From Trypanosoma brucei (lineage: Eukaryota), in contig CP000067.1 of the NCBI GenBank assembly GCA_000002445.1, positions 32,001-96,000 of the forward strand: a stretch of DNA of 64,000 bases, read 5' to 3'. This document shows positions 19,908-40,843 of this stretch, piece by piece. The position numbers were made by a program, and so were the translations under genes. Each line of letters begins with the position of its first letter. Position 1 is the stretch's first letter. The notes beneath the pieces are model-generated. The model did not search any database, was not told the DNA's origin, and saw nothing but the letters and a program-made list of their open reading frames with translations.

Positions 19908-22844
19908 AAGGTATTCATGCGCATGGTGAAGGATCTTTACATTAAGAAATAATACAAACAACTATCAGAACTTGCGCATAATCTCACATGAGCCGTCACT
20001 CGGAATGACGTTTCCATTACTTATTAACTTTGCAACAACAATTTTAATACATACTCTCACACTCCTAATCAGTACACAGTGTGCAAATGAAAGTACGAGA
20101 TATCAAAACATATACAATAATAATCGCCGTAAAAAGTAAAACCAATGAAAATAAAATCTTATACATCAAAGAGGAACCTCTCTCACCTGACGAACAAATG
20201 CTGCTCACTTTCTTTATTCTTTAAGTGATCCTGTGTTTTTTTTCTTGCGGCCATGGAACCATGAATACAAAGAACATATGAAGGCATGAAAGGTATTTGT
20301 TTTTGTTTTGGTATTGGAGCACCTTGCCATGCGTCTGATCTTGTGCCTTGGTGAAACTCAAAAGAAACGAAAGGCTCACGGAAGGGAACAAATATATTTG
20401 TGGGAATAACAATCCAATATTAGGCCTCTTTTAAGGAGTGTGCTGAGTGGAATAATGGTGAAAAAGAAGTATTGAAAATGTATGCTATATGGACAAATGC
20501 CTTACAATGTTTTCTCTCTATCTGAAACATATGGAATATATGGAATATATAAGGAACAAGAAACATAGGGAATATATGAAGAATAAGGAAATATATGATA
20601 TATTCTGAAGTGCCGGATGTGCTTGTGCGTGTCTTCGTATGTGTTCTCTGCTTTATATATCACTAAATATTTTACACATTTCATTTTACTTTGCGTATGC
20701 TAATAGCTTGTTTTTCCTTGCATCAATTCATGGAAATATCTATTAGAGAAATAATAATTTACTTTTTCTCTTCCTTTCCCGCTAATGTTTCACCGCCTAT
20801 TTTCATTCCTTATAAATACTGTAAATTTCTTTTGTTACTGTAACTATTTCCAAAAAAAATGTAATGGAGACACTTTAAGCATTACATATCATAATATCTC
20901 TAAACTCCTTCTATGTTATGTTAAGTTACAAATATTTTCATTCCCATTAATTTTATTCAGCAGAACATACAAAACACCCTCAAAAGTCCTTCCTTCCTTT
21001 CTTTTTCTTCAACATCATAATATACCTTGTGGAATATACAAATATATAATAACCATAAATGTGTTATATATCTTCACAACATCAGAAGCTATACAACAGA
21101 ATTGTGTTCCTCAAGAAGCAGTGGTTGTGTTTCCTTTTACTTTCTCTCAGAGTCAAACTAATTAATTAATTACTAATAACATCCTCCAAAGATATTGCTT
21201 CTATTTTCTTGGATCACTCAGCAGCGTAACACCGGAGTATTGAAATAAAGAGTCACAGTTCAAAGAAAATAAAACAGTAAAAAAAATAAACAGAGGCTCG
21301 CACCTTCACAATTGGTTGCATTTGGATATATCAAACGCATTTATACACTTGCATTCCTTGTGTTTCTTTTTTGGGGGAGGGTAAATGCAAAATGCAAAAT
21401 GTATCAAGTTGACGAGTAGAAGAAATACAACACTTGATATAATTTCACTTACATATAAGCTTTCGTTTCCCACTTTATTCTAATTCATAATATTTAGATA
21501 GCAATGTAATGGAGCATTCAGCCATAAACATTTTAACCATAAATATAGTAACTAATGTGTGAATGGTAACCCATGGTGATACATTCCATATGGAACAATA
21601 CCACATTGTTAAATATACGCATGGAATTAAAACTATAGCACTAAATTGAAAATGAAAAATTAGAAGAGAGAAAGATATGAATTATCAAAAGAGGCATATT
21701 CTTCACTAACATGCACTTGTTTCAATACAATCATAATTTCAAATTACTTTAAATGATAAGTGGCCCAATGTCCTGAAACGACACAATAACAATGATTTCA
21801 TTATAACAACTGTAAAATAATGATATGCAATAAAGTAAATAATATAAATAAATAAAAATACAGCAAGCACTGCAGAATATATTTTACTGCTATAACCATT
21901 TGCAAACAAATGAATAGCTTTGCTCATTGGAAGAAAATAATTAAATTCAAACTTCCTATGATTCTGCCAGTGTTGGTGAGCTACGTGTGGGACTCAAAAA
22001 AAACAAAAGTTTATTTTAAATAAATATAAAGAAAAGAAAAACTTCTCATGAAACCATAAGGGTACCCCTGTGAGTTATGTGCTGCTGTAAAACATAGTTA
22101 ACTTCACAACCCTCAAGAAAGAAAGAAATAATAAAAGTAAAATGTAAACAAAAATAAAGTTAAGATATATAATACACTTATGCTTAACTAAATGTAACGT
22201 GTCATACGTAAAGGTGATAAAATAATAATCACAATGTAATGTTATCAATGCTTTCCTTCGCAAACGAAAACTGTCACATCTCAATGTGTTCTTCCAAATT
22301 AATATAAAGGAACCAGCTGTGTTTGTATAATATTCTACAATGTCATTTGGCATTGTCCAATGCTCACTCAAAAAACTCCTTCGTTTTGTTGCGATGTAGC
22401 TGTTGACAGTGTTGTGCTCTTTTTCTTTTTTATTTTTTAACATACAACTATGGGTTTCCGTAATCCTCTCAATATTGCTGCAGTTCCCATCATTAAAAAA
22501 AAAACAAAAGAAATCCATCAAAATAGCGTAACTGGAGTATAAGATGTTGTAGAGAACAATGTATTTATTTTGAGTAATGGAACTCTGTGAGGTCGAAGAC
22601 AATAATCCGAAACGATTGAACCGAAACTTTCATTGCCCCATGCCTGTAAAATAATAATTTAATTGCTCAACGCATATTCTCATCCTGCAGTAAGTAGTTC
22701 AAACAATTTCGTACACACATGAAACACTGGAAGGAAAAGAAAACATATACATTGCATAAACCTTTACTAAATGAAAATACTATTTTTGGTATCGAGTTCA
22801 CCATGTGTTACAGAGCCACATTTCACTAACATGCTAAAGCATAA

Positions 22845-24542
22845 TTAATTCATCATCATATTTCTGATCATCAGCGATAGGGCTTGACATTTGTATGATT
22901 CGACTCCTCCAACATTTCCTTTTACTCTTACAATCTTCACCAACTTGTTCATAACTTCATCGTTCCGCCAGTCAGCCGTGTGTTCAATAATATCATTATA
23001 GCAATATTTATCAGATTTCTTCATAGCTCTCAACGCATCATACACACTTTTCAGATGCCACTCATAACAACCTAAACCAAATATATAACGAGGCAGCGGT
23101 CCAATTAAATTAATGCGTTCCTCCACTATTTTCCACTCATCTTCAATTTCTCTCTTCAATTCGTATCTTCTTCTGTTGGACACCTTTTCTCCTGTATGTA
23201 TTGACAGCTTTTTCCATGCCATAAATGCCTTCATGTCACGCACATCATCGCAGTTCATAATAATTTGGTGGCCTCCCTTATTTGCACTCCACTCATCAAA
23301 ATGGTCACTTTTAGGGAAAGTGAGGAAAGTTACACTCCAAACATCAGAGGGAAGTTGAGTGTATAGTTGCTCCATTGCATACCTTGTGTCCATAACAATG
23401 TGCCCTTTGCTTTCAGATTTCATTTTATTTATGGCAGCAACGGCAGACTCCCAGCGTTCGTATTCATCAACAGTCCCTCTTTCCTCACCCTCTCGGTTGT
23501 ATATCAGGAAGGCAGAATCCTCCAAGAAATATGCAACAACATCAAGCATTCCTTCATTGAAGTGAAGCAGTGAATAAAATAAAAATGATCCAAGGCCACA
23601 TGTTTTACCAATTCCAGACGTGCCAATAATAATATGTATTGGTGGACCCTCAGCTGTTGCTTCCATCCACCATGCTTTCAGACCTCGTTGGATTATATAC
23701 CACACGCGCATAATTTCACGACGGATATATACATGCTTGCAAATTGTCTTGCATCTCTCAGTGTAACCCAATACAAACCTGTTGTATGGCCAACCCTTCT
23801 CCGACGTAAGAACAAAAATCTCCAAACCATTGGATCCTTCCTTTACTCTTGCATCAACATCGGCAGTTTTAGGAGTTATATTCAATTCTGCCTCCGTCCA
23901 TATGCGCTGCGGCCTTCCATCGAATACCTTCATTCCAAGTGGCTCCGCATCATAACCCGACATCACATAACTCCATTTCGCATTGTAAAAAGAATCGTAA
24001 ACATCTCGACAACTTTTGACAGAAACACGCGGCAGAAACCATACTTCTGATTCCGTGACAGCATATTGTACTGCATTCAACCTTCCCCTTGCTACAGGGC
24101 TAATGGAGTTTTTCACCTCTGGAGTTGCACCGTTCACCCAATCGCTGATGGTATAAATTTTTTCCTCTTTAAGGTAGTTTATCCACATTTCTGTTTCAGG
24201 CAGTTTCTCAACAATCCTTTTGTACTCCCTGAACTCATAAAGCCCCTGTATATCCTCAAGAATCTCGGCATCCTTAATATAATCTTCAGGATTCTTAACA
24301 AACGTTTCCATTGACACATTCACTGTGTTATACGTGTTTGAGAAGCATTGATTCAAAAAGTCATGCAGATTCATTTTGGGCAATGTCGCATATTCTTCCA
24401 GCAAAAAATCCCTCACTGTACTGTTCATTTTACAATCAGAAAATCTTTTATATCTCTGCGGCATCTGTGGAGGCTGAGCAGGAGGAGGTGCTACATGTTC
24501 ATCCCGTGGCCTCCTCATGGCTCCTTCAATGTTATTTGGCAC
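22845..24542 (-). CDS. RHS: RHS-like protein, array copy 1. It has the N-terminal RHS domain and P-loop core but lacks the C-terminal RHS domain. The canonical ATG is replaced by ATA, and the first ATG is 8 codons into the track ORF.
   Basis: IIGTSGIGKTCG P-loop. Co-linear with the RHS pseudogene 14048-16410 up to ...YKCQALS, then stop. The track start is GTG; the ATA is at 24592-24594. Confidence 0.65.
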   Translation of the reverse strand: MPNNIEGAMRRPRDEHVAPPPAQPPQMPQRYKRFSDCKMNSTVRDFLLEEYATLPKMNLHDFLNQCFSNTYNTVNVSMETFVKNPEDYIKDAEILEDIQGLYEFREYKRIVEKLPETEMWINYLKEEKIYTISDWVNGATPEVKNSISPVARGRLNAVQYAVTESEVWFLPRVSVKSCRDVYDSFYNAKWSYVMSGYDAEPLGMKVFDGRPQRIWTEAELNITPKTADVDARVKEGSNGLEIFVLTSEKGWPYNRFVLGYTERCKTICKHVYIRREIMRVWYIIQRGLKAWWMEATAEGPPIHIIIGTSGIGKTCGLGSFLFYSLLHFNEGMLDVVAYFLEDSAFLIYNREGEERGTVDEYERWESAVAAINKMKSESKGHIVMDTRYAMEQLYTQLPSDVWSVTFLTFPKSDHFDEWSANKGGHQIIMNCDDVRDMKAFMAWKKLSIHTGEKVSNRRRYELKREIEDEWKIVEERINLIGPLPRYIFGLGCYEWHLKSVYDALRAMKKSDKYCYNDIIEHTADWRNDEVMNKLVKIVRVKGNVGGVESYKCQALSLMIRNMMMN

Positions 24543-24653
24543 TTGTGGGTTTGCGTTATTTCCTTGTGGAGCTGCGGGGCTATTGGCTCTTGATATAACT
24601 ATTTTAACAACCGTTATTAACTTAACTATCTTTTCTTAACTTTACTTTTTTAA

Positions 24654-24710
24654 CTGAAATTATAAATAGCTGAAGTAAAGCAGCCGATGAGGAAAACAAA
24701 AGTGTGTGAA
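24654..24710 (-). promoter_or_regulatory. Putative polypyrimidine tract plus AG trans-splice acceptor region for array copy 1. Equivalent sites exist in the other units.
   Basis: The sense strand reads cacacttttgttttcctcatcggctgctttacttcag, with AG about 110 nt upstream of the coding start. Inferred from sequence context only. Confidence 0.3.
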
Positions 24711-27700
24711 TTGTGTAACATAATATCAAATGTGATAGAGCAAGATAATATTTATTTACCGCTGTTTGCATAATATGATATCATAATGTATTTGATATTA
24801 AGGAAAACAATTTCAAAATATAGTAGCTGTTAATAAATTATTTCCCTTGCTTCATCATTATGTGCCAAATATAATTAATTTCCTGTATCATTCTTTTTAA
24901 ACCATATATAATATGGAAACAAAAAATATTACTGCCTCATACACCTGAATAAACACTTTGTATAGAGTTGACAGTTGTGAAAGGTCAAATTCTATTAATT
25001 AAAATCATTTTTTAAAAATAAACAATAAGCAGAAATATATATGGATATTAATGAAAGGGGAAAAGAATATCGGCACGAGGTATGGATATACACACATTAG
25101 TACAGACACATGAATACACAACTGTTTTCCTGCTATTTCCTCCTTTCTGCCAATACGAGGCATTCAGTTGTATTGAAGGAACTCGTTGAAATATAAATCA
25201 TTTTTCTAACCCATATACTTACCACCGGAATAACGTATTGAATAATCTCTGTATGATATTTATGGAATTGATAATTCTTTTTTCCCCTTTTATAACGTGG
25301 AATGCTGATGCAGCTCTTGGTAGTGTTTCACCAGCAGTCTTCATTGAGATTCCATGCGGTGTCGTAGCATTGTGAGGAGAGTTCTGGGCAGAGGAGACCC
25401 GGGTTCCGCAATGTTGGATTCAGTGTGGGGCCGACATTGGCTCACGATAGGACTCATGAAGGAGCTTGTGAGAGTTCTCTTTTCATGCGCAATCCGAAAG
25501 AGTAGAGGACAATGAATTTATGTCTCCGGTAAAAGAGAGGTTCATCACGTTGTTCACTATATTTGCTTCCGCCTCGTTCATTTAGTGGTTGTTGTGACCC
25601 TTTTTTCTGGGGTGGGGGATTTCTGTCCCTCTTTTCCTCAATGCTACCGCTTTGTCTCGAGTTTTGTGTGTCTGCTTTTGTGCCTTGGTGAAACTCAAAA
25701 GAAACGCTAGCGAAAGGCTCACAGAAGTTAATAAATATATTTGTAGAAATAATCCAATAATGGACCTCTTTTGAGGAATGGTGAGTGAAAAAAATGGTGC
25801 AAAAAAACATTGAAAATTTATGCCACATGGACAAGTGCTTTATAATGTTCCCACTGTGTGGAAATATGGAATATATAAGGAACATATGAGAGGCAGTGAA
25901 TAGTTATAGAACAAACGGAATATATGGAGAACAAGAAACGTAGGGAATATATCAAATGTATGGTATATATGGAATGTATGAGAGGCAAAAAGTATGGAAA
26001 AACTTTGTTAATTGAATATACATTCATGTATTCTCAGGTGCTGGATGTGTTTGTGCGTGTATTTATATGTATGTGTTCTCTGCTTTATATATCACTAAAT
26101 ATTTTACACATTTCATTTTACTTTGCGTATGCTAATAGCTTGTTTTTCCTTGCATCAATTCATGGAAATATCTATTAGAGAAATAATAATTTACTTTTTC
26201 TCTTCCTTTCCCGCTAATGTTTCACCGCCTATTTCCATTCCTTATAAATACTGTAAATTTCTTTTGTTACTGTAACTATTTCCAAAAAAAATGTAAGTAA
26301 GACAGTTTAAGCATTACACATCATAATATCTCCAAACTCCTTCTATGTTATGTTAAGCTACAAATATTTTCATTCCCATTAATTTTATTCAGCAGAACAT
26401 ACAAAACACCCTCAAAAGTCCTTCCTTCCTTTCTTTATTTTTTTTTTTGAAATCATAATATATCTTGTGGAATATACAAATATATAATAACCATAAATGT
26501 GTTATATATCATCAAAACATCAGCAGCTTCACGACATAATTGTGTCCTTCAATAAGCAGTGGTTGTGTTTCCTTTTATTTTATCTCAGAGTCAAACTAAT
26601 TAATTAATTACTAACAGCATCCTCCAAAAATGTTTCTTCTATTTTCTTGGATCACTCAGCAGCGTAACACCGGAGTATTGAAATAAAGAGTCACAGTTCA
26701 AAGAATACAAAACAGTAAAAAAAATAAACAGAGGCTCGCACCTTCACAATTGGTTGCATTTGGATATATCAAACGCATTTATACACTTGCATTCCTTGTG
26801 TTTCTTTTTTGGGGGAGGGTAAATGCAAAATGTATCAAGTTGACGAGTAGAAGAAATACAGCACTTGATATAATTTCACTTACATATAAGCTTTCGTTTC
26901 CCACTTTATTCTAATTCATAATATTTAGATAGCAATGTAATGCAGTATTCAGCAATAAACATTTTAACCATAAATATAGTAACTAATGTGTGAATGGTAG
27001 CCCATGGCGATACATTCCATATGGAACAATACCACATTGTTAAATATATACATCGAATTAAAACTATAGCACTAAATTGAAAATGAAAAATTAGAAGAGA
27101 GAAAGATATGAATTATCAAAAGAGGCATATTCTTCACTAACATGCACTTGTTTCAATACAATCATAATTTCAAATTACTTTAAATGATAAGTGGCCCAAT
27201 GTCCTGAAATGACACAATAACAATGATTTCATTATAGCACCTGTAAAATAATGATATGAAATAAAATAAATAATAAAAATAAATAAAAATACAGCAAGCA
27301 CTGCAGAATATATTTTACTGCTATAACCATTTGCCAACAGATGAATAGCTTTGCTCATTGGAAGAAAATAATTAAATTCAAACTTCCTATGACTATGCCA
27401 GTGTTAATGAGCTACGTGTGGGACTCAAAAAAAAAAACAAAAAGTTTATTTTAAATAAACATGAAGAAAAGAAAAACTTCTCATGAAACCATAAGGGTAT
27501 CCGTGTGAGTTATGTGCTGCTGTCAAACATAGTTAACTTCACAACCCTTAAGAAAGAGAGAAATAATAAAAGTAAAATGTAAACAAAAATAAAGGTAAGA
27601 TATATAATACACTTATGCTTAACTAAATGTAACATGTCATACGTAAAGGTGATAAAATAATAATCACAATGTAATGTTATCAATGCTTTCCTTCGCAAAC

Positions 27701-28276
27701 GAAAACTGTCACATCTCAATGTGTTCTTTCAAATTAATATAAAGGAACCAGCTGTGTTTGTATAATATTCTACAATGTCATTTGGCATTGTCCAATGCTC
27801 ACTCAAAAAACTCCTTCGTTTTGTTGCGATGTAGCTGTTGTCAGTTGTGCTCTTTTTTTATTTTATTTTTTAACATACAACTATGGGTTTCCGTAATCCT
27901 CTCAATATTGCTGCAGTTCCCATCATTAAAAAAAAACAAAAGAAATCCATCAAAATAGCGTAACTGGAGTATAAGATGTTGTAGAGAACAATGTATTTAT
28001 TTTGAGTAATGGAACTCTGTGAGGTCGAAGACAATAATCCTAAACGATTGAACCGAAACTTTCATTGCCCCATGCCTGTAAAATAATAATTTAATTGCTC
28101 AACGCATATTCTCATCCTGCAGTAAGTAGTTCAAACAATTTCGTACACACATGAAACACTGGAAGGAAAAGAAAACATATACATTGCATAAACCTTTACT
28201 AAATGAAAATACTATTTTTGGTATCGAGTTCACCATGTGTTACAGAGCCACATTTCACTAACATGCTAAAGCATAA

Positions 28277-29974
28277 TTAATTCATCATCATATTTCTGAT
28301 CATCAGCGATAGGGCTTGACATTTGTATGATTCGACTCCTCCAACATTTCCTTTTACTCTTACAATCTTCACCAACTTGTTCATAACTTCATCGTTCCGC
28401 CAGTCAGCCGTGTGTTCAATAATATCATTATAGCAATATTTATCAGATTTCTTCATAGCTCTCAACGCATCATACACACTTTTCAGATGCCACTCATAAC
28501 AACCTAAACCAAATATATAACGAGGCAGCGGTCCAATTAAATTAATGCGTCCCTCCACTATTTTCCACTCATCTTCAATTTCTCTCTTCAATTCGTATCT
28601 TCTTCTGTTGGACACCTTTTCTCCTGTATGTATTGACAGCTTTTTCCATGCCATAAATGCCTTCATGTCACGCACATCATCGCAGTTTATAATAATATGG
28701 TGGCCTCCCTTATTTGCACTCCACTCATCAAAATGGGCACTTTTAGGGAAAGTGAGGAAAGTTACACTCCAAACATCAGAGGGAAGTTGAGTGTATAGTT
28801 CCTCCATTGCATACCTTGTGTCCATAACAATGTGCCCTTTGCTTTCAGATTTCATTTTATTTATGGCAGAAACGGCAGACTCCCAGCGTTTGTATTCATC
28901 AACAGTCCCTCTTCCCTCACCCTCTCGGTTGTATATCAGGAAGGCAGCATCCTCCAAGAAATATGCAACAACATCAAGCATTCCTTCATTGAAGTGAAGC
29001 AGTGAATAAAATAAAAATGATCCAAGGCCACATGTTTTACCAATTCCAGACGTGCCAATAATAATATGTATTGGTGGACCCTCAGCTGTTGCTTCCATCC
29101 ACCATGCTTTCAGACCTCGTTGGATTATATACCACACGCGCATAATTTCACGACGGATATATACATGCTTGCAAATTGTCTTGCATCTCTCAGTGTAACC
29201 CAATACAAACCTGTTGTATGGCCAACCCTTCTCCGACGTAAGAACAAAAATCTCCAAACCATTGGATCCTTCCTTTACTCTTGCATCAACATCGGCAGTT
29301 TTAGGAGTTATATTCAATTCTGCCTCCGTCCATATGCGCTGCGGCCTTCCATCGAATACCTTCATTCCAAGTGGCTCCGCATCATAACCCGACATCACAT
29401 AACTCCATTTCGCATTGTAAAAAGAATCGTAAACATCTCGACAACTTTTGACAGAAACACGCGGCAGAAACCATACTTCTGATTCCGTGACAGCATGTTG
29501 TACTGCATTCAACCTTCCCCTTGCTACGGGGCTAATGGAGTTTTTCACCTCTGGAGTTGCACCGTTCACCCAATCGCTGATGGTAAAAATTTTTTCCTCT
29601 TTTAGGTAGTTTATCCACATTTCTGTTTCAGGCAGTTTCTCAACAATCCTTTTGTACTCCCTGAACTCATAAAGCCCCTGTATATCCTCAAGAATCTCGG
29701 CATCCTTAATATAATCTTCAGGATTCTTAACAAACGTTTCCATTGACACATTCACTGTGTTATACGTGTTTGAGAAGCATTGATTCAAAAAGTCATGCAG
29801 ATTCATTTTGGGCAATGTCGCATATCTTTCCAGCAAAAAATCCCTCACTGTACTGTTCATTTTCCAATCAGAAAATCTTTTATATCTCTGCGGCATCTGT
29901 GGAGGCTGAGCAGGAGGAGGTGCTACATGTTCATCCCGTGGCCTCCTCATGGGCCCTTCAATGTTATTTGGCAC
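28277..29974 (-). CDS. RHS: RHS-like protein, array copy 2 (C-terminal domain absent, ATA at the canonical start position).
   Basis: About 98% identical to copies 3 and 4. The ATA is at 30026-30028. Confidence 0.65.
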   Translation of the reverse strand: MPNNIEGPMRRPRDEHVAPPPAQPPQMPQRYKRFSDWKMNSTVRDFLLERYATLPKMNLHDFLNQCFSNTYNTVNVSMETFVKNPEDYIKDAEILEDIQGLYEFREYKRIVEKLPETEMWINYLKEEKIFTISDWVNGATPEVKNSISPVARGRLNAVQHAVTESEVWFLPRVSVKSCRDVYDSFYNAKWSYVMSGYDAEPLGMKVFDGRPQRIWTEAELNITPKTADVDARVKEGSNGLEIFVLTSEKGWPYNRFVLGYTERCKTICKHVYIRREIMRVWYIIQRGLKAWWMEATAEGPPIHIIIGTSGIGKTCGLGSFLFYSLLHFNEGMLDVVAYFLEDAAFLIYNREGEGRGTVDEYKRWESAVSAINKMKSESKGHIVMDTRYAMEELYTQLPSDVWSVTFLTFPKSAHFDEWSANKGGHHIIINCDDVRDMKAFMAWKKLSIHTGEKVSNRRRYELKREIEDEWKIVEGRINLIGPLPRYIFGLGCYEWHLKSVYDALRAMKKSDKYCYNDIIEHTADWRNDEVMNKLVKIVRVKGNVGGVESYKCQALSLMIRNMMMN

Positions 29975-32900
29975 TTGTGGGTTTGCGTTATTTCCTTGTG
30001 GAGCTGCGGGGCTATTGGCTTTTGATATTACAATTATAATAATAATTATTATCTTAACTATCTTTTCTTAACTTTACTTTTTTAACTGAAATTATAAATA
30101 GCTGAAGTAAAGCAGCCGATGAGGAAAACAAAAGTGTGTGAATTGTGTAACATAATATCAAAAGTAATAGAGCAAGATAATATTTATTTACCGCTGTTTG
30201 CATAATATGATATCATAATGTATTTGATATTAAGGAAAACAATTTCAAAATATAGTAGCTGTTAATAAATATTTCCCTTACTTCATTATCATGTGCCAAA
30301 TATAATTAATTTCATGTATCATTTCTTTTTAAACAACGAATAATATGGAAACAAAAAATATTACTGCCTCATACACCTGAATAAACACTTTGTATAGAGT
30401 TGACAGTTGTGAAAGGTCAAATTCTATTAATTAAAATCATTTTTTAAAAATAAACAATAAGCAGAAAAATATATGGATATTAATGAAAGGGGAAAAGAAT
30501 ATCGGCACGAGGTATGGATATACACACATTAGTACAGACACATGAATACACAACTGTTTTCCTGCTATTTCCTCCTTTCTGCCAATACGAGGCATTCAGT
30601 TGTATTGAAGGAACTCGTTGAAATATAAATCATTTTTCTAACCCATATACTTACCACCGGAATAACGTATTGAATAATCTCTGTATGATATTTATGGAAT
30701 TGATAATTCTTTTTTCCCCTTTTATAACGTGGAATGCTGATGCAGCTCTTGGTAGTGTTTCACCAGCAGTCTTCATTGAGATTCCATGCGGTGTCGTAGC
30801 ATTGTGAGGAGAGTTCTGGGCAGAGGAGACCCGGGTTCCGCAATGTTGGATTCAGTGTGGGGCCGACATTGGCTCACGATAGGACTCATGAAGGAGCTTG
30901 TGAGAGTTCTCTTTTCATGCGCAATCCGAAAGAGTAGAGGACAATGAAGTTATGTCTCCGGTAAAAGAGAGGTTCATCACGTTGTTCACTATATTTGCTT
31001 CCGCCTCGTTCATTTAGTGGTTGTTGTGACCTTTTTTTTTTCTGGGGTGGGGGATTTCTGTCCCTCTTTTCCTCAATGCTACCGCTTTGTCTCGAGTTTT
31101 GTGTGTCTGCGTTTGTGCCTTGGTGAAACTCAAAAGAAACGCTAGCGAAAGGCTCACAGAAGGTAATAAATATATTTGTAGAAATAATCCAATAATGGAC
31201 CTCTTTTGAGGAATGGTGAGTGAAAAAAATGGTGCAAAAAAACATTGAAAATTTATGCCACATGGACAAGTGCTTTATAATGTTCCCACTGTATAGAAAT
31301 ATGGAATATATAAGGAACATATGGGAGGCAGTGAATATTTATAGAACAAACGGAATATATGGAGAACAAGAAACGTAGGGAATATATCAAATGTATGGTA
31401 TATATGGAATGTATGAGAGGCAAAAAGTATGGAAAAACTTTGTTAATTGAATATACATTCATGTATTCTCAGGTGCTGGATGTGTTTGTGCGTGTATTTG
31501 TATGTATGTGTTCTCTGCTTTATATATCACTAAATATTTTACACATTTCATTTTACTTTGCGTATGCTAATAGCTTGTTTTTCCTTGCATCAATTCATGG
31601 AAATATCTATTAGAGAAATAATAATTTACTTTTTCTCTTTCTTTCCCGCTAATGTTTCACCGCCTATTTTCATTCCTTATAAATACTGTAAATTTCTTTT
31701 TGTTACTGTAACTATTTCCAAAAAAAATGTAATGGAGACACTTTAAGCATTACATATCATAATATCTCTAAACTCCTTCTATGTTATGTTAAGTTACTAA
31801 TATTTTCATTCCCATTAATTTTATTCAGCAGAACATACAAAACACCCTCAAAAGTCCTTCCTTCCTTTCTTTATTTTTTTTTTGAAATCATAATATATCT
31901 TGTGGAATATACAAATATATAATAACCATAAATGTGTTATATATCTTCACAACATCAGAAGCTTCACGACATAATTGTGTTCCTCAAGAAGCAGTGGTTG
32001 TGTTTCCTTTTACTTTCTCTCAGAGTCAAACTAATTAATTAATTACTAATAACTTCCTCCAAAGATATTGCTTCTATTTTCTTGGATCAACGAGCAGCGT
32101 AACACCGGAGTATTGAAATGAAGAGTCACAGTTCAAAGAATATAAAACACAGAATAAATAGACAGAGACTCGCACCTTCACAATTGGTTGCATTTGGATA
32201 CATCAAACATATTTTTTCGCCTCCTTGTGTTTTTTTGGACGTGGGAGGGGTAAATGCAAAATGCAAAATGTATCAAGTTGACGAGTAGCAGAAATACAAC
32301 ACTTGATATAATTTCACTTACATATAAGCTTTCGTTTCCCACTTTATTCTAATTCATAATATTTTGATAGCAATGTAATGCAGTATTCAGCCATAAACAT
32401 TTTAGCCATAAATATAGTAACTAATGTGTGAATGGTAGCCCATGGCGATACATTCCATATGAAACAATACCACATTGTTAAATATATACATGGAATTAAA
32501 ACTATAGCACTAAATTGAAAATGAAAAATTAAAAGAGAAAAAGATATGAATTATCAAAAGAGGCATATTCTTCACTAACATGCATTTGTTTCAATACAAT
32601 CATAATTTGAAATTACTTTAAATGATAAGTGGCCCAATGTCCTGAAATGACACAATAACAATGATTTCATTATAGCACCTGTAAAATAATGATATGCAAT
32701 AAAGTAAATAATAAAAATAAATAAAAATACAGCAAGCACTGCAGAATATATTTTACTGCTATAACCATTTGCCAACAGATGAATAGCTTTGCTCATTGGA
32801 AGAAAATAATTAAATTCAAACTTCCTATGATTCTGCCAGTGTTAGTGAGCTACGTGTGGGACTCAAAAAACACAAAAGTTTATTTTAAATAAACATGAAG

Positions 32901-33710
32901 AAAAGAAAAACTTCTCATGAAACCATAAGGGTACCCCTGTGAGTTATGTGCTGCTGTAAAACATAGTTAACTTCACAACCCTTAAGAAAGAGAGAAATAA
33001 TAAAAGTAAAATGTAAACAAAAATAAAGGTAAGATATATAATACACTTATGCTTAACTAAATGTAACATGTCATACGTAAAGGTGATAAAATAATAATCA
33101 CAATGTAATGTTATCAATGCTTTCCTTCACAAACAAAAACTGTCACATCTCAATGTGTTCTTCCAAATTAATATAAAGGAACCAGCTGTGTTTGTATAAT
33201 ATTCTACAATGTCATTTGGCATTGTCCAATGCTCACTCAAAAAACTCCTTCGTTTTGTTGCGATGTAGCTGTTTTCAGTTGTGCTCTTTTTTTATTTTAT
33301 TTTTTAACATACAACTATGGGTTTCCGTAATCCTCTCAATATTGCTGCAGTTCCCATCATTAAAAAAAAACAAAAGAAATCCATCAAAATAGCGTAACTG
33401 GAGTATAAGATGTTGTAGAGAACAATGTATTTATTTTGAGTAATGGAACTCTGTGAGGTCGAAGACAATAATCCGAAACGATTGAACCGAAACTTTCATT
33501 GCCCCATGCCTGTAAAATAATAATTTAATTGCTCAACGCATATTCTCATCCTGCAGTAAGTAGTTCAAACAATTTCGTACACACATGAAACACTGGAAGG
33601 AAAAGAAAACATATACATTGCATAAACCTTTACTAAATGAAAATACTATTTTTGGTATCGAGTTCACCAAGTGTTGCAGAGCCACATTTCACTAACATGC
33701 TAAAGCATAA

Positions 33711-35408
33711 TTAATTCATCATCATATTTCTGATCATAAGCGATAGGGCTTGACATTTGTATGATTCGACTCCTCCAACATTTCCTTTTACTCTTACAAT
33801 CTTCACCAACTTGTTCATAACTTCATCGTTCCGCCAGTCAGCCGTGTGTTCAATAATATCATTATAGCAATATTTATCAGATTTCTTCATAGCTCTCAAC
33901 GCATCATACACACTTTTCAGATGCCACTCATAACAACCTAAACCAAATATATAACGAGGCAGCGGTCCAATTAAATTAATGCGTCCCTCCACTATTTTCC
34001 ACTCATCTTCAATTTCTCTCTTCAATTCGTATCTTCTTCTGTTGGACACCTTTTCTCCTGTATGTATTGACAGCTTTTTCCATGCCATAAATGCCTTCAT
34101 GTCACGCACATCATCGCAGTTTATAATAATATGGTGGCCTCCCTTATTTGCACTCCACTCATCAAAATGGGCACTTTTAGGGAAAGTGAGGAAAGTTACA
34201 CTCCAAACATCAGAGGGAAGTTGAGTGTATAGTTCCTCCATTGCATACCTTGTGTCCATAACAATGTGCCCTTTGCTTTCAGATTTCATTTTATTTATGG
34301 CAGCAACGGCAGACTCCCAGCGTTTGTATTCATCAACAGTCCCTCTTCCCTCACCCTCTCGGTTGTATATCAGGAAGGCAGCATCCTCCAAGAAATATGC
34401 AACAACATCAAGCATTCCTTCATTGAAGTGAAGCAGTGAATAAAATAAAAATGATCCAAGGCCACATGTTTTACCAATTCCAGACGTGCCAATAATAATA
34501 TGTATTGGTGGACCCTCAGCTGTTGCTTCCATCCACCATGCTTTCAGACCTCGTTGGATTATATACCACACGCGCATAATTTCACGACGGATATATACAT
34601 GCTTGCAAATTGTCTTGCATCTCTCAGTGTAACCCAATACAAACCTGTTGTATGGCCAACCCTTCTCCGACGTAAGAACAAAAATCTCCAAACCATTGGA
34701 TCCTTCCTTTACTCTTGCATCAAAATCGGCAGTTTTAGGAGTTATATTCAATTCTGCCTCCGTCCATATGCGCTGCGGCCTTCCATCGAATACCTTCATT
34801 CCAAGTGGCTCCGCATCATAACCCGACATCACATAACTCCATTTCGCATTGTAAAAAGAATCGTAAACATCTCGACAACTTTTGACAGAAACACGCGGCA
34901 GAAACCATACTTCTGATTCCGTGACAGCATGTTGTACTGCATTCAACCTTCCCCTTGCTACGGGGCTAATGGAGTTTTTCACCTCTGGAGTTGCACCGTT
35001 CACCCAATCGCTGATGGTAAAAATTTTTTCCTCTTTAAGGTAGTTTATCCACATTTCTGTTTCAGGCAGTTTCTCAACAATCCTTTTGTACTCCCTGAAC
35101 TCATAAAGCCCCTGTATATCCTCAAGAATCTCGGCATCCTTAATATAATCTTCAGGATTCTTAACAAACGTTTCCATTGACACATTCACTGTGTTATACG
35201 TGTTTGAGAAGCATTGATTCAAAAAGTCATGCAGATTCATTTTGGGCAATGTCGCATATTCTTCCAGCAAAAAATCCCTCACTGTACTGTTCATTTTCCA
35301 ATCAGAAAATCTTTTATATCTCTGCGGCATCTGTGGAGGCTGAGCAGGAGGAGGTGCTACATGTTCATCCCGTGGCCTCCTCATGGGCCCTTCAATGTTA
35401 TTTGGCAC
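33711..35408 (-). CDS. RHS: RHS-like protein, array copy 3 (C-terminal domain absent, GTA at the canonical start position).
   Basis: Near-identical to copies 2 and 4. Confidence 0.65.
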   Translation of the reverse strand: MPNNIEGPMRRPRDEHVAPPPAQPPQMPQRYKRFSDWKMNSTVRDFLLEEYATLPKMNLHDFLNQCFSNTYNTVNVSMETFVKNPEDYIKDAEILEDIQGLYEFREYKRIVEKLPETEMWINYLKEEKIFTISDWVNGATPEVKNSISPVARGRLNAVQHAVTESEVWFLPRVSVKSCRDVYDSFYNAKWSYVMSGYDAEPLGMKVFDGRPQRIWTEAELNITPKTADFDARVKEGSNGLEIFVLTSEKGWPYNRFVLGYTERCKTICKHVYIRREIMRVWYIIQRGLKAWWMEATAEGPPIHIIIGTSGIGKTCGLGSFLFYSLLHFNEGMLDVVAYFLEDAAFLIYNREGEGRGTVDEYKRWESAVAAINKMKSESKGHIVMDTRYAMEELYTQLPSDVWSVTFLTFPKSAHFDEWSANKGGHHIIINCDDVRDMKAFMAWKKLSIHTGEKVSNRRRYELKREIEDEWKIVEGRINLIGPLPRYIFGLGCYEWHLKSVYDALRAMKKSDKYCYNDIIEHTADWRNDEVMNKLVKIVRVKGNVGGVESYKCQALSLMIRNMMMN

Positions 35409-38400
35409 TTGTGGGTTTGCGTTATTTCCTTGTGGAGCTGCGTGGCTATTGGCTCTTGATACAACTATTTTAACAACCGTTATTAACTTAACTATCTTTT
35501 CTTAACTTTACTTTTTTAACTGAAATTATAAATAGCTGAAGTAAAGCAGCCGATGAGGAAACAAAAGTGTGTGAATTGTGTAACATAATATCAAAAGTAA
35601 TATAGCAAGATAATATTTATTTACCGCTGTTTGCATAATATGATATCATAATGTATTTGATATTAAGGAAAACAATTTCAAAATATAGTAGCTGTTAATA
35701 AATATTTCCCTTACTTCATTATCATGTGCCAAATATAATTAATTTCATGTATCATTTCTTTTTAAACAACGAATAATATGGAAACAAAAAATATTACTGC
35801 CTCATACACCTGAATAAACACTTTGTATAGAGTTGACAGTTATGAAAGGTCAAATTCTATTAATTAAAATCATTTTTTAAAAATAAACAATAAGCAGAAA
35901 TATATATGGATATTAATGAAAGGGGAAAAGAATATCGGCACGAGGTATGGATATACACACATTAGTACAGACACATGAATACACAACTGTTTTCCTGCTA
36001 TTTCCTCCTTTCTGCCAATACGGGGCATTCAGTTGTATTGAAGGAACTCGTTGAAATATAAATCATTTTTCTAACCCATATACTTACCACCGGAATAACG
36101 TATTGAATAATCTCTGTAGAATATTTATGGAATTGATTATTCTTTTTTCCCCTTTTATAACGTGGAATGCTGATGCAGCTCTTGGTAGTGTTTCACCAGC
36201 AGTCTTCATTGAGATTCCATGCGGTGTCGTAGCATTGTGAGGAGAGTTCTGGGCAGAGGAGACCCGGGTTCCTCAATGTTGGATTCAGTGTGGGGCCGAC
36301 ATTGGCTCACGATAGGACTCATGAAGGAGCTTGTGAGAGTTCTCTTTTCATGCGCAATCCGAAAGAGTAGAGGACAATGAATTTATGTCTCCGGTAAAAG
36401 AGAGGTTCATCACGTTGTTCACTATATTTGCTTCCGCCTCGTTCATTTAGTGGTTGTTGTGACCCTTTTTTCTGGGGTGGGGGATTTCTGTCCCTCTTTT
36501 CCTCAATGCTACCGCTTTGTCTCGAGTTTTGTGTGTCTGCTTTTGTGCCTTGGTGAAACTCAAAAGAAACGCTAGCGAAAGGCTCACAGAAGGTAATAAA
36601 TATATTTGTAGAAATAATCCAATAATGGACCTCTTTTGAGGAATGGTGAGTGAGAAAAATGGTGCAAAAAAACATTGAAAATTTATGCCACATGGACAAG
36701 TGCTTTATAATGTTCCCACTGTGTGGAAATATGGAATATATAAGGAACATATGAGAGGCAGTGAATATTTATAGAACAAACGGAATATATGGAGAACAAG
36801 AAACGTAGGGAATATATCAAATGTATGGTATATATGGAATGTATGAGAGGCAAAAAGTATGGAAAAACTTTGTTAATTGAATATACATTCATGTATTCTC
36901 AGGTGCTGGATGTGTTTGTGCGTGTATTTGTATGTATGTGTTCTCTGCTTTATATATCACTAAATATTTTACACATTTCATTTTACTTTGCGTATGCTAA
37001 TAGCTTGTTTTTCCTTGCATCAATTCATGGAAATATCTATTAGAGAAATAATAATTTACTTTTTCTCTTTCTTTCCCGCTAATGTTTCACCGCCTATTTT
37101 CATTCCTTATAAATACTGTAAATTTCTTTTGTTACTGTAACTATTTCCAAAAAAAATGTAAGGGAGACACTTTAAGGATTACATATCATAATATCTCTAA
37201 ACTCCTTCTATGTTATGTTAAGTTACTAATATTTTCATTCCCATTAATTTTATTCAGCAGAACATACAAAACACCCTCAAAAGTCCTTCCTTCCTTTCTT
37301 TATTTTTTTTTTGAAATCATAATATATCTTGTGGAATATACAAATATATAATAACCATAAATGTGTTATATATCATCAAAACATCAGCAGCTTCACGACA
37401 TAATTGTGTCCTTCAATAAGCAGTGGCTGTGTTTTCTTTTATTTTATCTCAGAGTCAAACTAATTAATTAATTACTAACAGCATCCTCCAAAAATGTTTC
37501 TTCTATTTTCTTGGATCACTCAGCAGCGTAACACCGGAGTATTGAAATAAAGAGTCACAGTTCAAAGAATATAAAACAGTAAAAAAATAAACAGAGGCTC
37601 GCACCTTCACAATTGGTTGCATTTGGATATATCAAACATATTTTTTCGCCTCCTTGTGTTTTTTTGGACGTGGGAGGGGTAAATGCAAAATGCAAAATGT
37701 ATCAAGTTGACGAGTAGCAGAAATACACCACATGATATAATTTCACTTACATGCAAGCTTTCTTTTACAACTTTATTCCAATTCATAATATTTAGATAGC
37801 AATGTAATGGAGCATTCAGCCATAAACATTTTAACCATAAATATAGTAACTAATGTGTGAATGGTAACCCATGGTGATACATTCCATATGGAACAATACC
37901 ACATTGTTAAATATACGCATGGAATTAAAACTATAGCACTAAATTGAAAATGAAAAATTAGAAGAGAGAAAGTTATGAATTATCAAAAGAGGCATATTCT
38001 TCACTAACATGCATTTGTTTCAATACAATCATAATTTGAAATTACTTTAAATGATAAGTGGCCCAATGTCCTGAAATGACACAATAACAATGATTTCATT
38101 ATAGCACCTGTAAAATAATGATATGCAATAAAGTAAATAATATAAATAAATAAAAATACAGCAAGCACTGCAGAATATATTTTACTGCTATAACCATTTG
38201 CCAACAGATGAATAGCTTTGCTCATTGGAAGAAAATAATTAAATTCAAACTTCCTATGACTATGCCAGTGTTAATGAGCTACGTGTGGGACTCAAAAAAA
38301 AAACAAAAAGTTTATTTTAAATAAACATGAAGAAAAGAAAAACTTCTCATGAAACCATAAGGGTATCCGTGTGAGTTATGTGCTGCTGTCAAACATAGTT

Positions 38401-39145
38401 AACTTCACAACCCTTAAGAAAGAGAGAAATAATAAAAGTAAAATGTAAACAAAAATAAAGGTAAGATATATAATACACTTATGCTTAACTAAATGTAACA
38501 TGTCATACGTAAAGGTGATAAAATAATAATCACAATGTAATGTTATCAATGCTTTCCTTCGCAAACGAAAACTGTCACATCTCAATGTGTTCTTTCAAAT
38601 TAATATAAAGGAACCAGCTGTGTTTGTATAATATTCTACAATGTCATTTGGTGTTGTCCAATGCTCACTCAAAAAACTCCTTCGTTTTGTTGCGATGTAG
38701 CTGTTGACAGTGTTGTGCTCTTTTTCTTTTTTATTTTTTAACATACAACTATGGGTTTCCGTAATCCTCTCAATATTGTTGCAGTTCCCATCATTAAAAA
38801 AAAAACAAAAGAAATCCATCAAAATAGCGTAACTGGAGTATAAGATGTTGTAGAGCACAATGTATTTATTTTGAGTAATGGAACTCTGTGAGGTCGAAGA
38901 CAATAATCCTAAACGATTGAACCGAAACTTTCATTGCCCCATGCCTGTAAAATAATAATTTAATTGCTCAACGCATATTCTCATCCTGCAGTAAGTAGTT
39001 CAAACAATTTCGTACACACATGAAACACTGGAAGGAAAAGAAAACATATACATTGCATAAACCTTTACTAAATGAAAATACTATTTTTGGTATCGAGTTC
39101 ACCAAGTGTTGCAGAGCCACATTTCACTAACATGCTAAAGCATAA

Positions 39146-40843
39146 TTAATTCATCATCATATTTCTGATCATCAGTGATAGGGCTTGACATTTGTATGAT
39201 TCGACTCCTCCAACATTTCCTTTTACTCTTACAATCTTCACCAACTTGTTCATAACTTCATCGTTCCGCCAGTCAGCCGTGTGTTCAATAATATCATTAT
39301 AGCAATATTTATCAGATTTCTTCATAGCTCTCAACGCATCATACACACTTTTCAGATGCCACTCATAACAACCTAAACCAAATATATAACGAGGCAGCGG
39401 TCCAATTAAATTAATGCGTCCCTCCACTATTTTCCACTCATCTTCAATTTCTCTCTTCAATTCGTATCTTCTTCTGTTGGACACCTTTTCTCCTGTATGT
39501 ATTGACAGCTTTTTCCATGCCATAAATGCCTTCATGTCACGCACATCATCGCAGTTTATAATAATATGGTGGCCTCCCTTATTTGCACTCCACTCATCAA
39601 AATGGGCACTTTTAGGGAAAGTGAGGAAAGTTACACTCCAAACATCAGAGGGAAGTTGAGTGTATAGTTCCTCCATTGCATACCTTGTGTCCATAACAAT
39701 GTGCCCTTTGCTTTCAGATTTCATTTTATTTATGGCAGCAACGGCAGACTCCCAGCGTTTGTATTCATCAACAGTCCCTCTTCCCTCACCCTCTCGGTTG
39801 TATATCAGGAAGGCAGCATCCTCCAAGAAATATGCAACAACATCAAGCATTCCTTCATTGAAGTGAAGCAGTGAATAAAATAAAAATGATCCAAGGCCAC
39901 ATGTTTTACCAATTCCAGACGTGCCAATAATAATATGTATTGGTGGACCCTCAGCTGTTGCTTCCATCCACCATGCTTTCAGACCTCGTTGGATTATATA
40001 CCACACGCGCATAATTTCACGACGGATATATACATGCTTGCAAATTGTCTTGCATCTCTCAGTGTAACCCAATACAAACCTGTTGTATGGCCAACCCTTC
40101 TCCGACGTAAGAACAAAAATCTCCAAACCATTGGATCCTTCCTTTACTCTTGCATCAACATCGGCAGTTTTAGGAGTTATATTCAATTCTGCCTCCGTCC
40201 ATATGCGCTGCGGCCTTCCATCGAATACCTTCATTCCAAGTGGCTCCGCATCATAACCCGACATCACATAACTCCATTTCGCATTGTAAAAAGAATCGTA
40301 AACATCTCGACAACTTTTGACAGAAACACGCGGCAGAAACCATACTTCTGATTCCGTGACAGCATGTTGTACTGCATTCAACCTTCCCCTTGCTACGGGG
40401 CTAATGGAGTTTTTCACCTCTGGAGTTGCACCGTTCACCCAATCGCTGATGGTAAAAATTTTTTCCTCTTTAAGGTAGTTTATCCACATTTCTGTTTCAG
40501 GCAGTTTCTCAACAATCCTTTTGTACTCCCTGAACTCATAAAGCCCCTGTATATCCTCAAGAATCTCGGCATCCTTAATATAATCTTCAGGATTCTTAAC
40601 AAACGTTTCCATTGACACATTCACTGTGTTATACGTGTTTGAGAAGCATTGATTCAAAAAGTCATGCAGATTCATTTTGGGCAATGTCGCATATTCTTCC
40701 AGCAAAAAATCCCTCACTGTACTGTTCATTTTCCAATCAGAAAATCTTTTATATCTCTGCGGCATCTGTGGAGGCTGAGCAGGAGGAGGTGCTACATGTT
40801 CATCCCGTGGCCTCCTCATGGGCCCTTCAATGTTATTTGGCAC
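39146..40843 (-). CDS. RHS: RHS-like protein, array copy 4 (C-terminal domain absent, GTA at the canonical start position).
   Basis: Near-identical to copies 2 and 3. Confidence 0.65.
   Translation of the reverse strand: MPNNIEGPMRRPRDEHVAPPPAQPPQMPQRYKRFSDWKMNSTVRDFLLEEYATLPKMNLHDFLNQCFSNTYNTVNVSMETFVKNPEDYIKDAEILEDIQGLYEFREYKRIVEKLPETEMWINYLKEEKIFTISDWVNGATPEVKNSISPVARGRLNAVQHAVTESEVWFLPRVSVKSCRDVYDSFYNAKWSYVMSGYDAEPLGMKVFDGRPQRIWTEAELNITPKTADVDARVKEGSNGLEIFVLTSEKGWPYNRFVLGYTERCKTICKHVYIRREIMRVWYIIQRGLKAWWMEATAEGPPIHIIIGTSGIGKTCGLGSFLFYSLLHFNEGMLDVVAYFLEDAAFLIYNREGEGRGTVDEYKRWESAVAAINKMKSESKGHIVMDTRYAMEELYTQLPSDVWSVTFLTFPKSAHFDEWSANKGGHHIIINCDDVRDMKAFMAWKKLSIHTGEKVSNRRRYELKREIEDEWKIVEGRINLIGPLPRYIFGLGCYEWHLKSVYDALRAMKKSDKYCYNDIIEHTADWRNDEVMNKLVKIVRVKGNVGGVESYKCQALSLMIRNMMMN

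What the first reader, a model, noticed from the sequence alone, without database searches (positions are those of the whole stretch)
24592..24594. Canonical start codon lost (ATG to ATA or GTA) in four of five array copies, with only the array-leading copy keeping ATG
Copy 5 starts ATG TCA AGA GCC (MSRANSPAAPQGNNANPQVPNNIEG...). The homologous positions read ATA in copies 1 and 2 (24592-24594, 30026-30028) and GTA in copies 3 and 4 (about 35458-35460 and 40893-40895), and an in-frame TAA lies 11 codons upstream. Translation of copies 1-4 would therefore have to start at Met9 of the track ORF (MRRPRDEH...). The ORF track hides this by calling a GTG start. Either copies 1-4 are N-terminally shortened isoforms, or they are pseudogenes and only copy 5 is functional.
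Basis: seen in the sequence. Interest (0 to 1): 0.5.

Follow-up and report, generated by a model that had tools for sequence, protein, structure and literature searches.

The report
Start codon lost in trypanosome RHS3 array
Four of five tandem copies of a Trypanosoma brucei RHS3 gene carry one inherited start-codon mutation and probably start translation 26 codons downstream; this is real but ordinary, and the reference annotation already records it.

Summary
The window is Trypanosoma brucei brucei TREU927 chromosome 4. It holds a minus-strand array of five 5.43-kb units, each with an RHS3-type retrotransposon hot spot gene. The ancestral initiator codon reads ATA in copies 1 and 2, GTA in copies 3 and 4, and ATG only in copy 5, the first copy in the direction of transcription.

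ATG is the ancestral state. Eleven other T. brucei RHS proteins begin at the homologous Met. A T. equiperdum RHS3 gene with the same type of 5' flank as the internal copies still has ATG there. The syntenic T. equiperdum array shows the same pattern: ATG in the leading copy, ATA in the next. The loss is therefore one G>A event in the internal repeat unit that spread as the array grew, followed by one A>G change in the copy 3/4 lineage.

In copies 1-4, a polypyrimidine tract and AG acceptors are followed by no ATG before Met27. Scanning should therefore start at Met27 and give a 557-aa protein with all recognised domains. The lost residues lie in a tail predicted to be disordered. GenBank already annotates four 557-aa proteins and one 572-aa protein.

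Whether copies 1-4 are functional or decaying is not settled. Low interest.

The parts
20598..46294 (-). Tandem array of five ~5.43-kb units (copy 5 is first in the direction of transcription, copy 1 last). Each unit holds one RHS3-type gene and about 3.7 kb of AT-rich spacer. Homology downstream of copy 1 ends near 20598.
   Evidence: Start-to-start spacings of 5432, 5434, 5435 and 5430 at 93-100% identity. Unit alignment and sliding-window diversity. Blastn breakpoints against the T. equiperdum locus.
24594..24596 (-). Copy 1: former initiator codon, now ATA.
30026..30028 (-). Copy 2: former initiator codon, now ATA.
35460..35462 (-). Copy 3: former initiator codon, now GTA.
40895..40897 (-). 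Copy 4: former initiator codon, now GTA.
46292..46294 (-). Copy 5 (array-leading): ancestral ATG retained.
   Evidence: Same state in the T. equiperdum leading copy, L001:4486.
22845..24518 (-). Copy 1: predicted 557-aa ORF from Met27 (MRRPRDEH...). Its sequence is identical to GenBank XP_844176 / AAZ10617.
   Evidence: Exact-sequence look-up. Pfam DUF7578, RHS_N and RHSP all lie downstream of Met27.
28277..29950 (-). Copy 2: predicted 557-aa ORF from Met27.
33711..35384 (-). Copy 3: predicted 557-aa ORF from Met27.
39146..40819 (-). Copy 4: predicted 557-aa ORF from Met27.
44576..46294 (-). Copy 5: 572-aa ORF from the ancestral ATG. Its sequence is identical to XP_844180 / AAZ10621.
24519..24593 (-). 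Copy 1: the 25 former codons 2-26 (SRANSPAAPQGNNANPQVPNNIEGA), now predicted to be 5' UTR. The equivalent stretches are 29951-30025, 35385-35459 and 40820-40894.
   Evidence: Among copies 1-4, 5 of these 78 nt vary against 19 of 1671 in the body (Fisher p = 0.003).
24645..24710 (-). Copy 1: polypyrimidine tract (24710-24677) followed by candidate trans-splice acceptor AGs (G at 24670, 24654 and 24645). There is no ATG between these AGs and Met27. The layout is the same in copies 2-4.
   Evidence: prediction from sequence only
46355..46457 (-). Copy 5: its own, different polypyrimidine tract (46457-46400) and candidate acceptor AGs (G at 46375, 46371 and 46355). The first ATG after them is the ancestral start.
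   Evidence: The copy-5 flank is unrelated to the internal flank beyond about 100 nt upstream.
45899..45942 (-). Copy 5: variant coding segment, 33 nt shorter than in copies 1-4 (...QDTDEFQLLRADIYLSEEK... instead of ...QGLYEFREYKRIVEKLPETEMWINYLKEEK...).

Best explanation
The window is a subtelomere-proximal RHS (retrotransposon hot spot) gene cluster on T. brucei TREU927 chromosome 4. Five RHS3-type genes lie in a head-to-tail array downstream of a giant HECT ubiquitin-ligase gene, all on the same strand.

Shown: the family's ancestral initiator ATG took a single G>A transition (ATG>ATA) in the repeat unit that forms the internal copies. Amplification and homogenisation of that unit put the change in four copies. 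A later A>G change gave GTA in the copy 3/4 lineage. The leading copy keeps ATG because its 5' side is a different sequence. Identity between copy 5 and the internal copies drops from 97-99% to about 63% at the start codon, so the codon lies at the edge of the homogenised tract.

Inferred: each internal copy is trans-spliced at an AG 48-73 nt upstream of the dead codon. The scanning ribosome meets no AUG until Met27, which is conserved in 9 of 11 paralogues. It then makes a 557-aa RHS3 protein that lacks 26 residues of a disordered N-terminal tail and keeps every recognised domain. Copies 1-4 are therefore most likely N-terminally shortened paralogues, as the reference annotation already has them, and not dead genes.
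For: Identity of the locus:
- Exact matches to XP_844176-XP_844180 on a 1,590,432-bp T. b. brucei TREU927 contig: four proteins of 557 aa and one of 572 aa.
- Pfam RHSP, RHS_N and DUF7578 all match.
- The closest paralogue outside the array is RHS3 Q8WPQ6, at 65% identity, full coverage and the same length class.

ATG is ancestral:
- Eleven RHS proteins start at the homologous Met.
- L002 (a T. equiperdum RHS3 gene) has the internal-type flank and reads ...AGTT ATG TCAAGAGC... where copy 1 reads ...AGTT ATA TCAAGAGC....

One event, not an error:
- The syntenic T. equiperdum array (98.9% identical flank) has ATG in its leading copy and ATA in its second copy.

Homology break at the codon:
- Copy 5 against copy 1 is 97.4% identical at +4..+81 and 63% at -1..-50.

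Usable downstream start:
- A polypyrimidine tract and AGs lie at -73, -57 and -48, and no ATG occurs before Met27 in any internal copy.

Little is lost:
- The Pfam domains begin at residue 73.
- AlphaFold gives pLDDT below 50 and no secondary structure for residues 1-53.

Hints of maintenance:
- All four ORFs, and the T. equiperdum internal copy, are intact.
- In T. equiperdum the ATG-bearing copy is the one with a frameshift.
- The coding region has no frame-breaking indel, against 18 indel runs not divisible by three in about 3.7 kb of spacer.
- Coding diversity is several-fold lower than spacer diversity.
- The former leader is about 5 times more polymorphic than the body, as expected if it is no longer translated.
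Against: - No expression, trans-splice-site or translation data for these genes could be retrieved. The Met27 start rests on sequence inference and on annotators' choice.
- Differences among copies 1-4 in the ORF body are 14 nonsynonymous to 5 synonymous, about the neutral ratio. Pairwise dN/dS scatters around 1. There is no positive sign of purifying selection.
- Most spacer indels sit in homopolymer runs, which are rarer in the coding region. The indel contrast is therefore only suggestive: P is roughly 0.02-0.17 depending on the correction.
- About two thirds of annotated T. brucei RHS genes are considered pseudogenes (78 of 118; PMC6393297).
- The Met27 context (GCC or CCC, then ATG AGG) lacks the -3A and +5C that mark efficient T. 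brucei starts (PMC13069569).
- The T. equiperdum frameshift could be a long-read assembly error.
Confidence: 0.6

Rival explanations
1. Copies 1-4 are young pseudogenes. Loss of the initiator inactivated the internal unit, only the leading copy makes RHS3 protein from this locus, and the ORFs are still open only because the copies are very recent and keep being homogenised.
For: - The nonsynonymous to synonymous ratio among copies is about neutral, 14:5, and dN/dS is about 1.
- With only about 19 substitutions in the body, the absence of a stop codon is not surprising. This is my own estimate: about one would be expected.
- Pseudogenes are common in the RHS family, 78 of 118 (PMC6393297).
- RHS3 is reported as a major siRNA target (PMC3683921).
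- The Kozak context at Met27 is weak (PMC13069569).
Against: - An in-frame AUG that is the first AUG of the predicted mRNA lies only 78 nt downstream. It is a conserved Met in paralogues, so the mutation does not abolish an ORF.
- There are no frame-breaking indels in 4 x 1.75 kb of coding sequence, while the spacers have many.
- The ATA state is kept with an intact ORF in T. equiperdum, whereas the ATG copy there is frameshifted.
- The lost residues are in a tail predicted to be disordered.
Confidence: 0.3
2. The downstream Met is the original start, and copy 5 acquired a 26-codon N-terminal extension when it gained a new 5' flank.
For: Copy 5 has a unique upstream flank.
Against: - The 78-nt leader is present and 97-100% identical in all copies.
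- The same leader with ATG opens eleven other RHS proteins of the RHS1, RHS3 and other types.
- L002 carries ATG on the internal-type flank.
Confidence: 0.02
3. The ATA and GTA readings are sequencing or assembly errors in a collapsed or mis-assembled repeat.
For: Tandem repeats of 5.4 kb are hard to assemble. GTA has no independent confirmation here.
Against: - ATA is found independently at the same site in the T. equiperdum assembly.
- GTA occurs in two copies together with a linked second change at codon 7.
- The copies differ at many other sites in a consistent haplotype-like way.
Confidence: 0.03
4. Full-length protein is still made from copies 1 and 2 by near-cognate initiation at AUA.
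For: AUA differs from AUG by one base. Near-cognate initiation exists in eukaryotes (general knowledge).
Against: - GUA in copies 3 and 4 differs at two positions and cannot serve.
- The leader is accumulating nonsynonymous changes (R>K, P>H, P>A).
- No evidence for such initiation in T. brucei was found in the papers read.
Confidence: 0.05

Closest known systems
The annotated genes themselves: T. b. brucei TREU927 chromosome 4 'retrotransposon hot spot (RHS) protein, putative' XP_844176-XP_844180 (AAZ10617-AAZ10621)
   Same: Exact sequence identity. Copies 1-4 read from Met27 give the deposited 557-aa products, and copy 5 gives the deposited 572-aa product. A paper lists Tb927.4.300 as 'RHS3, putative' (PMC7952579). 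I did not verify that this locus tag maps to a copy in the window.
   Different: The deposited annotation records only the different lengths. None of the papers I could search describes the ATG>ATA/GTA change or its history.
RHS3 subfamily of T. brucei RHS proteins (for example UniProt Q8WPQ6, 576 aa)
   Same: Same domain order (DUF7578, RHS_N, RHSP P-loop). Same short length class. Same C-terminal ending (...ALSLMIRNMMMN against ...ALSLMTRNMMMS). Same N-terminal leader MSRANSPAAPQGNNANPQV... in copy 5.
   Different: Only 65% identical, so this is a distinct chromosome-4 lineage. Four of its five members lack the initiator ATG.
Concerted evolution of tandem gene arrays in T. brucei (Jackson 2007, PMC1855330)
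   Same: Array members are homogenised, and conversion tracts can start or end at start and stop codons. The terminal copy has its own flank. Mosaic segments are exchanged between copies.
   Different: That study does not treat this array in the text I could read. It lists an RHS7 array.

Membership tests
RHS (retrotransposon hot spot) protein family | RHS N-terminal domain (PF20445) followed by the RHS P-loop domain (PF07999) | tested here: met
   Copy 1: RHS_N E = 1.9e-31, RHSP E = 7.3e-55. Copy 5: 2.9e-31 and 6.3e-55. DUF7578 also matches.
RHS (retrotransposon hot spot) protein family | ATP/GTP-binding P-loop motif (described as the only recognisable feature in PMC6393297) | tested here: met
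   GTSGIGKT in all five copies, aligned with GTPGIGKS of paralogues. G, GIGK and neighbouring residues are invariant columns in alignment A1.
RHS (retrotransposon hot spot) protein family | Conserved RIME/ingi retroelement insertion site in the 5' part of the coding region | not tested
   The paper that defines the site (Bringaud 2002) was not available. No retroelement insertion interrupts any of the five ORFs.
RHS3 subfamily | Subfamily-specific C-terminus (subfamilies are defined by C-terminal similarity, PMC6393297) | tested here: met
   The best non-array hit is RHS3 Q8WPQ6, at 65% identity over 100% of the query. Both are short (572-576 aa) and end ...SLM(I/T)RNMMM(N/S). No remnant of the long C-terminal domain of other subfamilies lies downstream.
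Pseudogene (for copies 1-4) | Reading frame disrupted by a stop, frameshift or insertion | tested here: not met
   Four uninterrupted 557-codon ORFs from Met27.
Pseudogene (for copies 1-4) | No usable initiation codon | tested here: not met
   The ancestral ATG is lost. Met27 is in frame and is the first ATG after the predicted splice acceptors.
Pseudogene (for copies 1-4) | Neutral pattern of substitution | tested here: inconclusive
   14 nonsynonymous to 5 synonymous differences and dN/dS near 1, based on only 19 sites. Coding diversity is lower than spacer diversity.
Pseudogene (for copies 1-4) | No mRNA or protein product | not testable with these tools
   No data specific to these copies were found in the literature searched.

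The most novel reading that the evidence does not exclude
The split between ATG in the leading copy and ATA/GTA in the internal copies is conserved in T. equiperdum and coupled to two unrelated 5' flanks. It could be a maintained division of labour. The leading copy would supply an N-terminally extended RHS3 isoform under its own 5' UTR and trans-splice control. The internal copies would supply bulk amounts of a shorter isoform with different translation efficiency or localisation. A paper lists Tb927.4.300 (RHS3) among transcripts up-regulated normally during metacyclogenesis, but I did not confirm that this tag is the leading copy.
Probability: 0.08. Interest if true: 0.35.

Novelty: already known. 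Interest (0 to 1): 0.12.

Why it matters
It matters little beyond annotation hygiene.

It shows that a bacterial-style ORF call (GTG start) misrepresents these trypanosome genes. The 557-aa models in the reference genome rest on a real start-codon mutation, not on an arbitrary choice. 'Four of five copies' reflects one mutation spread by array amplification.

For RHS biology, it gives a natural experiment suggesting that the first 26 residues of RHS1/RHS3-type proteins may be dispensable. It also supplies copy-specific peptides and SNPs that could be used to ask whether the internal array copies are expressed.

Tried and rejected
- Copy 5 gained an extension: rejected, because the leader with ATG is family-wide.
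- Sequencing error: rejected for ATA by the independent T. equiperdum assembly.
- The 565-aa ORF is a truncated RHS with a decayed C-terminal half downstream: rejected. tblastn with long RHS proteins finds nothing between the stop codon and the next unit, and RHS3 proteins are naturally about 576-590 aa.
- dN/dS among copies as a test of function: too few differences, with ratios scattered around 1.
- Indel contrast between coding and spacer sequence: suggestive, but confounded by homopolymer content.
- More strains: exact-protein look-ups for the TREU927 products and for other TREU927 RHS proteins returned nothing. Only the T. equiperdum assembly was reachable.
- Literature: Bringaud 2002 was not held. 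The ribosome-profiling papers and their supplements had no entry for these genes. A search for the locus tags found one incidental mention.
- The 175-aa ORF in the spacer (22075-22602) has no Pfam match.

Full report
**What the window is.** All long ORFs lie on the minus strand. The composition alternates between blocks of about 48% GC and stretches of 30-38% GC. Pfam assigns the repeated 565-aa ORFs and three further ORFs (2907-4946, 14048-15922, 17436-19463) to the retrotransposon hot spot (RHS) family (RHS_N and RHSP). The 5,032-codon ORF at 48881-63979 ends in a HECT ubiquitin-ligase domain. Exact-sequence look-up places the array proteins on a 1,590,432-bp contig of Trypanosoma brucei brucei TREU927 as XP_844176-XP_844180. 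By its size I take that contig to be chromosome 4. The genome is eukaryotic and kinetoplastid, so the GTG start in the ORF track is an artefact of bacterial rules.

**The array.** Five units are spaced 5432, 5434, 5435 and 5430 nt apart and are 93-100% identical. Copy 1 is at the low-coordinate end. Copy 5 is next to the HECT gene and is first in the direction of transcription. Aligning whole units shows that homology downstream of copy 1 stops about 4.0 kb after its start (window ~20598). The 1.4 kb that precedes each internal gene is absent upstream of copy 5. The coding region is the most uniform part. Mean pairwise difference there is 0-0.02 outside one mosaic segment, against 0.02-0.12 in the spacer.

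**Checking the observation.** On the reverse complement, the codon homologous to the copy-5 ATG (46294-46292) reads as follows:

| Copy | Codon | Window coordinates |
|---|---|---|
| 1 | ATA | 24596-24594 |
| 2 | ATA | 30028-30026 |
| 3 | GTA | 35462-35460 |
| 4 | GTA | 40897-40895 |

The in-frame TAA is 14 codons upstream, not 11. The next in-frame ATG is codon 9 of the GTG-called ORF, which is Met27 of the ancestral frame.

**Which state is ancestral.**
- A protein search returned 45 RHS proteins. Eleven T. brucei members from RHS1, RHS3 and other long forms begin MSRANSPAAPQGNN... or close variants at the homologous Met. Nine of the eleven also have Met at position 27, and two have Val.
- At the DNA level, a T. 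equiperdum RHS3 gene (L002) has a 5' flank that aligns with the flank of the internal copies at 84.7% identity over 189 columns. At the critical site it reads ...AGTT ATG TCAAGAGC... where copy 1 reads ...AGTT ATA TCAAGAGC....
- The upstream ATG is therefore ancestral. The internal copies carry a G>A transition at its third base, and copies 3 and 4 carry an additional A>G at the first base.

**One event, and conserved across subspecies.**
- The T. equiperdum OVI assembly holds the syntenic locus (L001). It is 98.9% identical to window 50773-45943 across the HECT 3' end and the copy-5 flank.
- Its leading copy has ATG (L001:4486) and its second copy has ATA (L001:9923). The ATA is therefore neither a TREU927 sequencing error nor a strain-private change.
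- Copy 5 and copy 1 are 97.4% identical at +4..+81 and 99.2% at +82..+330, but only 63% at -1..-50 and about 50% (unrelated) further upstream. The start codon sits on the boundary between the homogenised gene body and two different 5' flanks.
- The codon state travels with the flank, not with the body. A 33-nt-shorter variant segment (window 45899-45942) accompanies ATG in TREU927 copy 5, but accompanies ATA in the T. equiperdum second copy.

**How the internal copies would be expressed (inference).**
- In trypanosomes, mRNAs are cut out of polycistronic transcripts by trans-splicing at an AG after a polypyrimidine tract. Ribosomes then scan from the capped spliced leader (established knowledge; scanning is summarised in PMC13069569).
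- Each internal copy has a pyrimidine-rich tract (copy 1: 24710-24677) followed by AGs 73, 57 and 48 nt before the dead codon. No ATG in any frame lies between those AGs and Met27. The first AUG of the predicted mRNA is therefore Met27, giving a 557-aa product.
- Copy 5 has its own longer tract (46457-46400) and AGs 80, 76 and 60 nt before its ATG.
- The Met27 context (GCC or CCC, then ATG AGG) lacks the -3A and +5C associated with efficient T. brucei starts. The copy-5 ATG has +5C (PMC13069569; sequence). Internal copies may therefore be translated less efficiently.

**What is lost.** The Pfam domains begin at residue 73 of the ancestral frame. An AlphaFold model of copy 5 was built on a 19-sequence alignment (mean pLDDT 65). 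It gives pLDDT below 50 and no secondary structure for residues 1-53. The 26 missing residues are half of a tail predicted to be disordered.

**Functional or decaying?**

For maintenance:
- The four ORFs and the T. equiperdum internal copy are intact.
- In T. equiperdum the frameshifted copy is the one with ATG. A long-read indel error cannot be excluded there.
- The coding region has no frame-breaking indel, against 18 indel runs not divisible by three in the spacers.
- The former leader is about five times richer in variable sites than the ORF body among copies 1-4: 5 of 78 against 19 of 1671, Fisher p = 0.003. This fits a stretch that has left the reading frame while the body has not.

Against maintenance:
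- The body differences are 14 nonsynonymous to 5 synonymous, about the neutral expectation. Pairwise dN/dS scatters around 1.
- Most spacer indels lie in homopolymer runs, which are rarer in coding DNA.
- Two thirds of annotated RHS genes are regarded as pseudogenes (PMC6393297).

I found no copy-resolved expression, splice-site or footprint data. I put about 0.6 on shortened but translated paralogues and about 0.3 on young pseudogenes.

**Comparison with what is known.** The genes are members of the RHS family and, by C-terminus and length, of the RHS3 subfamily. They are 65% identical to Q8WPQ6, so they form a separate chromosome-4 lineage. GenBank already models four 557-aa proteins starting MRRPRDEH and one 572-aa protein starting MSRANS. 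The T. equiperdum annotators did the same, with a 546-aa product. Homogenised arrays with a divergent terminal flank, and conversion tracts that end at start codons, are described for T. brucei arrays in general (PMC1855330). Nothing here departs from known kinds.

**Verdict.** The finding is real and correctly interpreted, but it is ordinary and already embedded in the reference annotation. The work here adds four things: the polarity of the change, its single origin, its conservation in a second subspecies, and a concrete way to test expression with copy-specific peptides.

Noticed in passing
window 45899-45942 (copy 5); L001:~4834-4914 and L001:~10270-10320: A mosaic coding segment exists in two forms: a short form (...QDTDEFQLLRADIYLSEEK...) and a form 33 nt longer. 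In TREU927 the short form is in the ATG-bearing leading copy. In T. equiperdum it is in the ATA-bearing second copy, and the leading copy has the long form. Segments are therefore exchanged between array positions independently of the start-codon state.
   Followed up: partly
L001:4486-6236 (T. equiperdum leading copy): The only ATG-bearing copy in the T. equiperdum assembly has a 1-nt deletion about 348 nt into the ORF. It is annotated as a 447-aa product from an internal Met. This may be a real frameshift or a long-read assembly error.
   Followed up: partly
window 30029-30065 (just upstream of the copy 2 ATA): The 35 nt before the dead codon of copy 2 differ from copies 1, 3 and 4 (84% identity over -1..-50). 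They contain a TAATAATTATTATTAT patch like the copy-5 flank. This may be a short conversion tract or parallel AT-repeat slippage. Copy 2 also has AGA>AAA at codon 3.
   Followed up: no
window 7136-10102 (-): A fragmented RHS pseudogene with an RHS2-type N-terminus (MNQQVPIEGRGDIEG...). It is split over at least three frames (9071-10021, 8050-8568, 7190-8029).
   Followed up: partly
window 14048-16379 (-): An RHS4-like gene, 93% identical to an RHS4 protein over residues 32-685, with no ATG at its N-terminus. It is preceded in another frame by a piece of a DUF7578-type RHS N-terminal region (16002-16379). It is probably a chimeric pseudogene.
   Followed up: no
window 48881-63979 (-): A giant uninterrupted ORF of 5,032 codons with a C-terminal HECT domain lies directly upstream of the array. 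The ORF lister gives it a GTG start at 63979, and I did not determine its true start. The same neighbour is present in T. equiperdum.
   Followed up: partly
window 25936-25980, 31371-31415, 36801-36845, 42237-42281; also 27246-27288 and 43548-43590: Short tandem repeats (18-nt unit, 2.5 copies; 22-nt unit, 2 copies) recur in the array spacers. The 175-aa spacer ORF at 22075-22602 has no Pfam match.
   Followed up: no
window 22845-24518 and equivalents: Differences among copies 1-4 within the ORF are mostly nonsynonymous (14 of 19). Several copy-1 variants match copy 5 (for example GEERG, YERW, HQIIMN). This points to patchy gene conversion rather than independent point mutation.
   Followed up: partly
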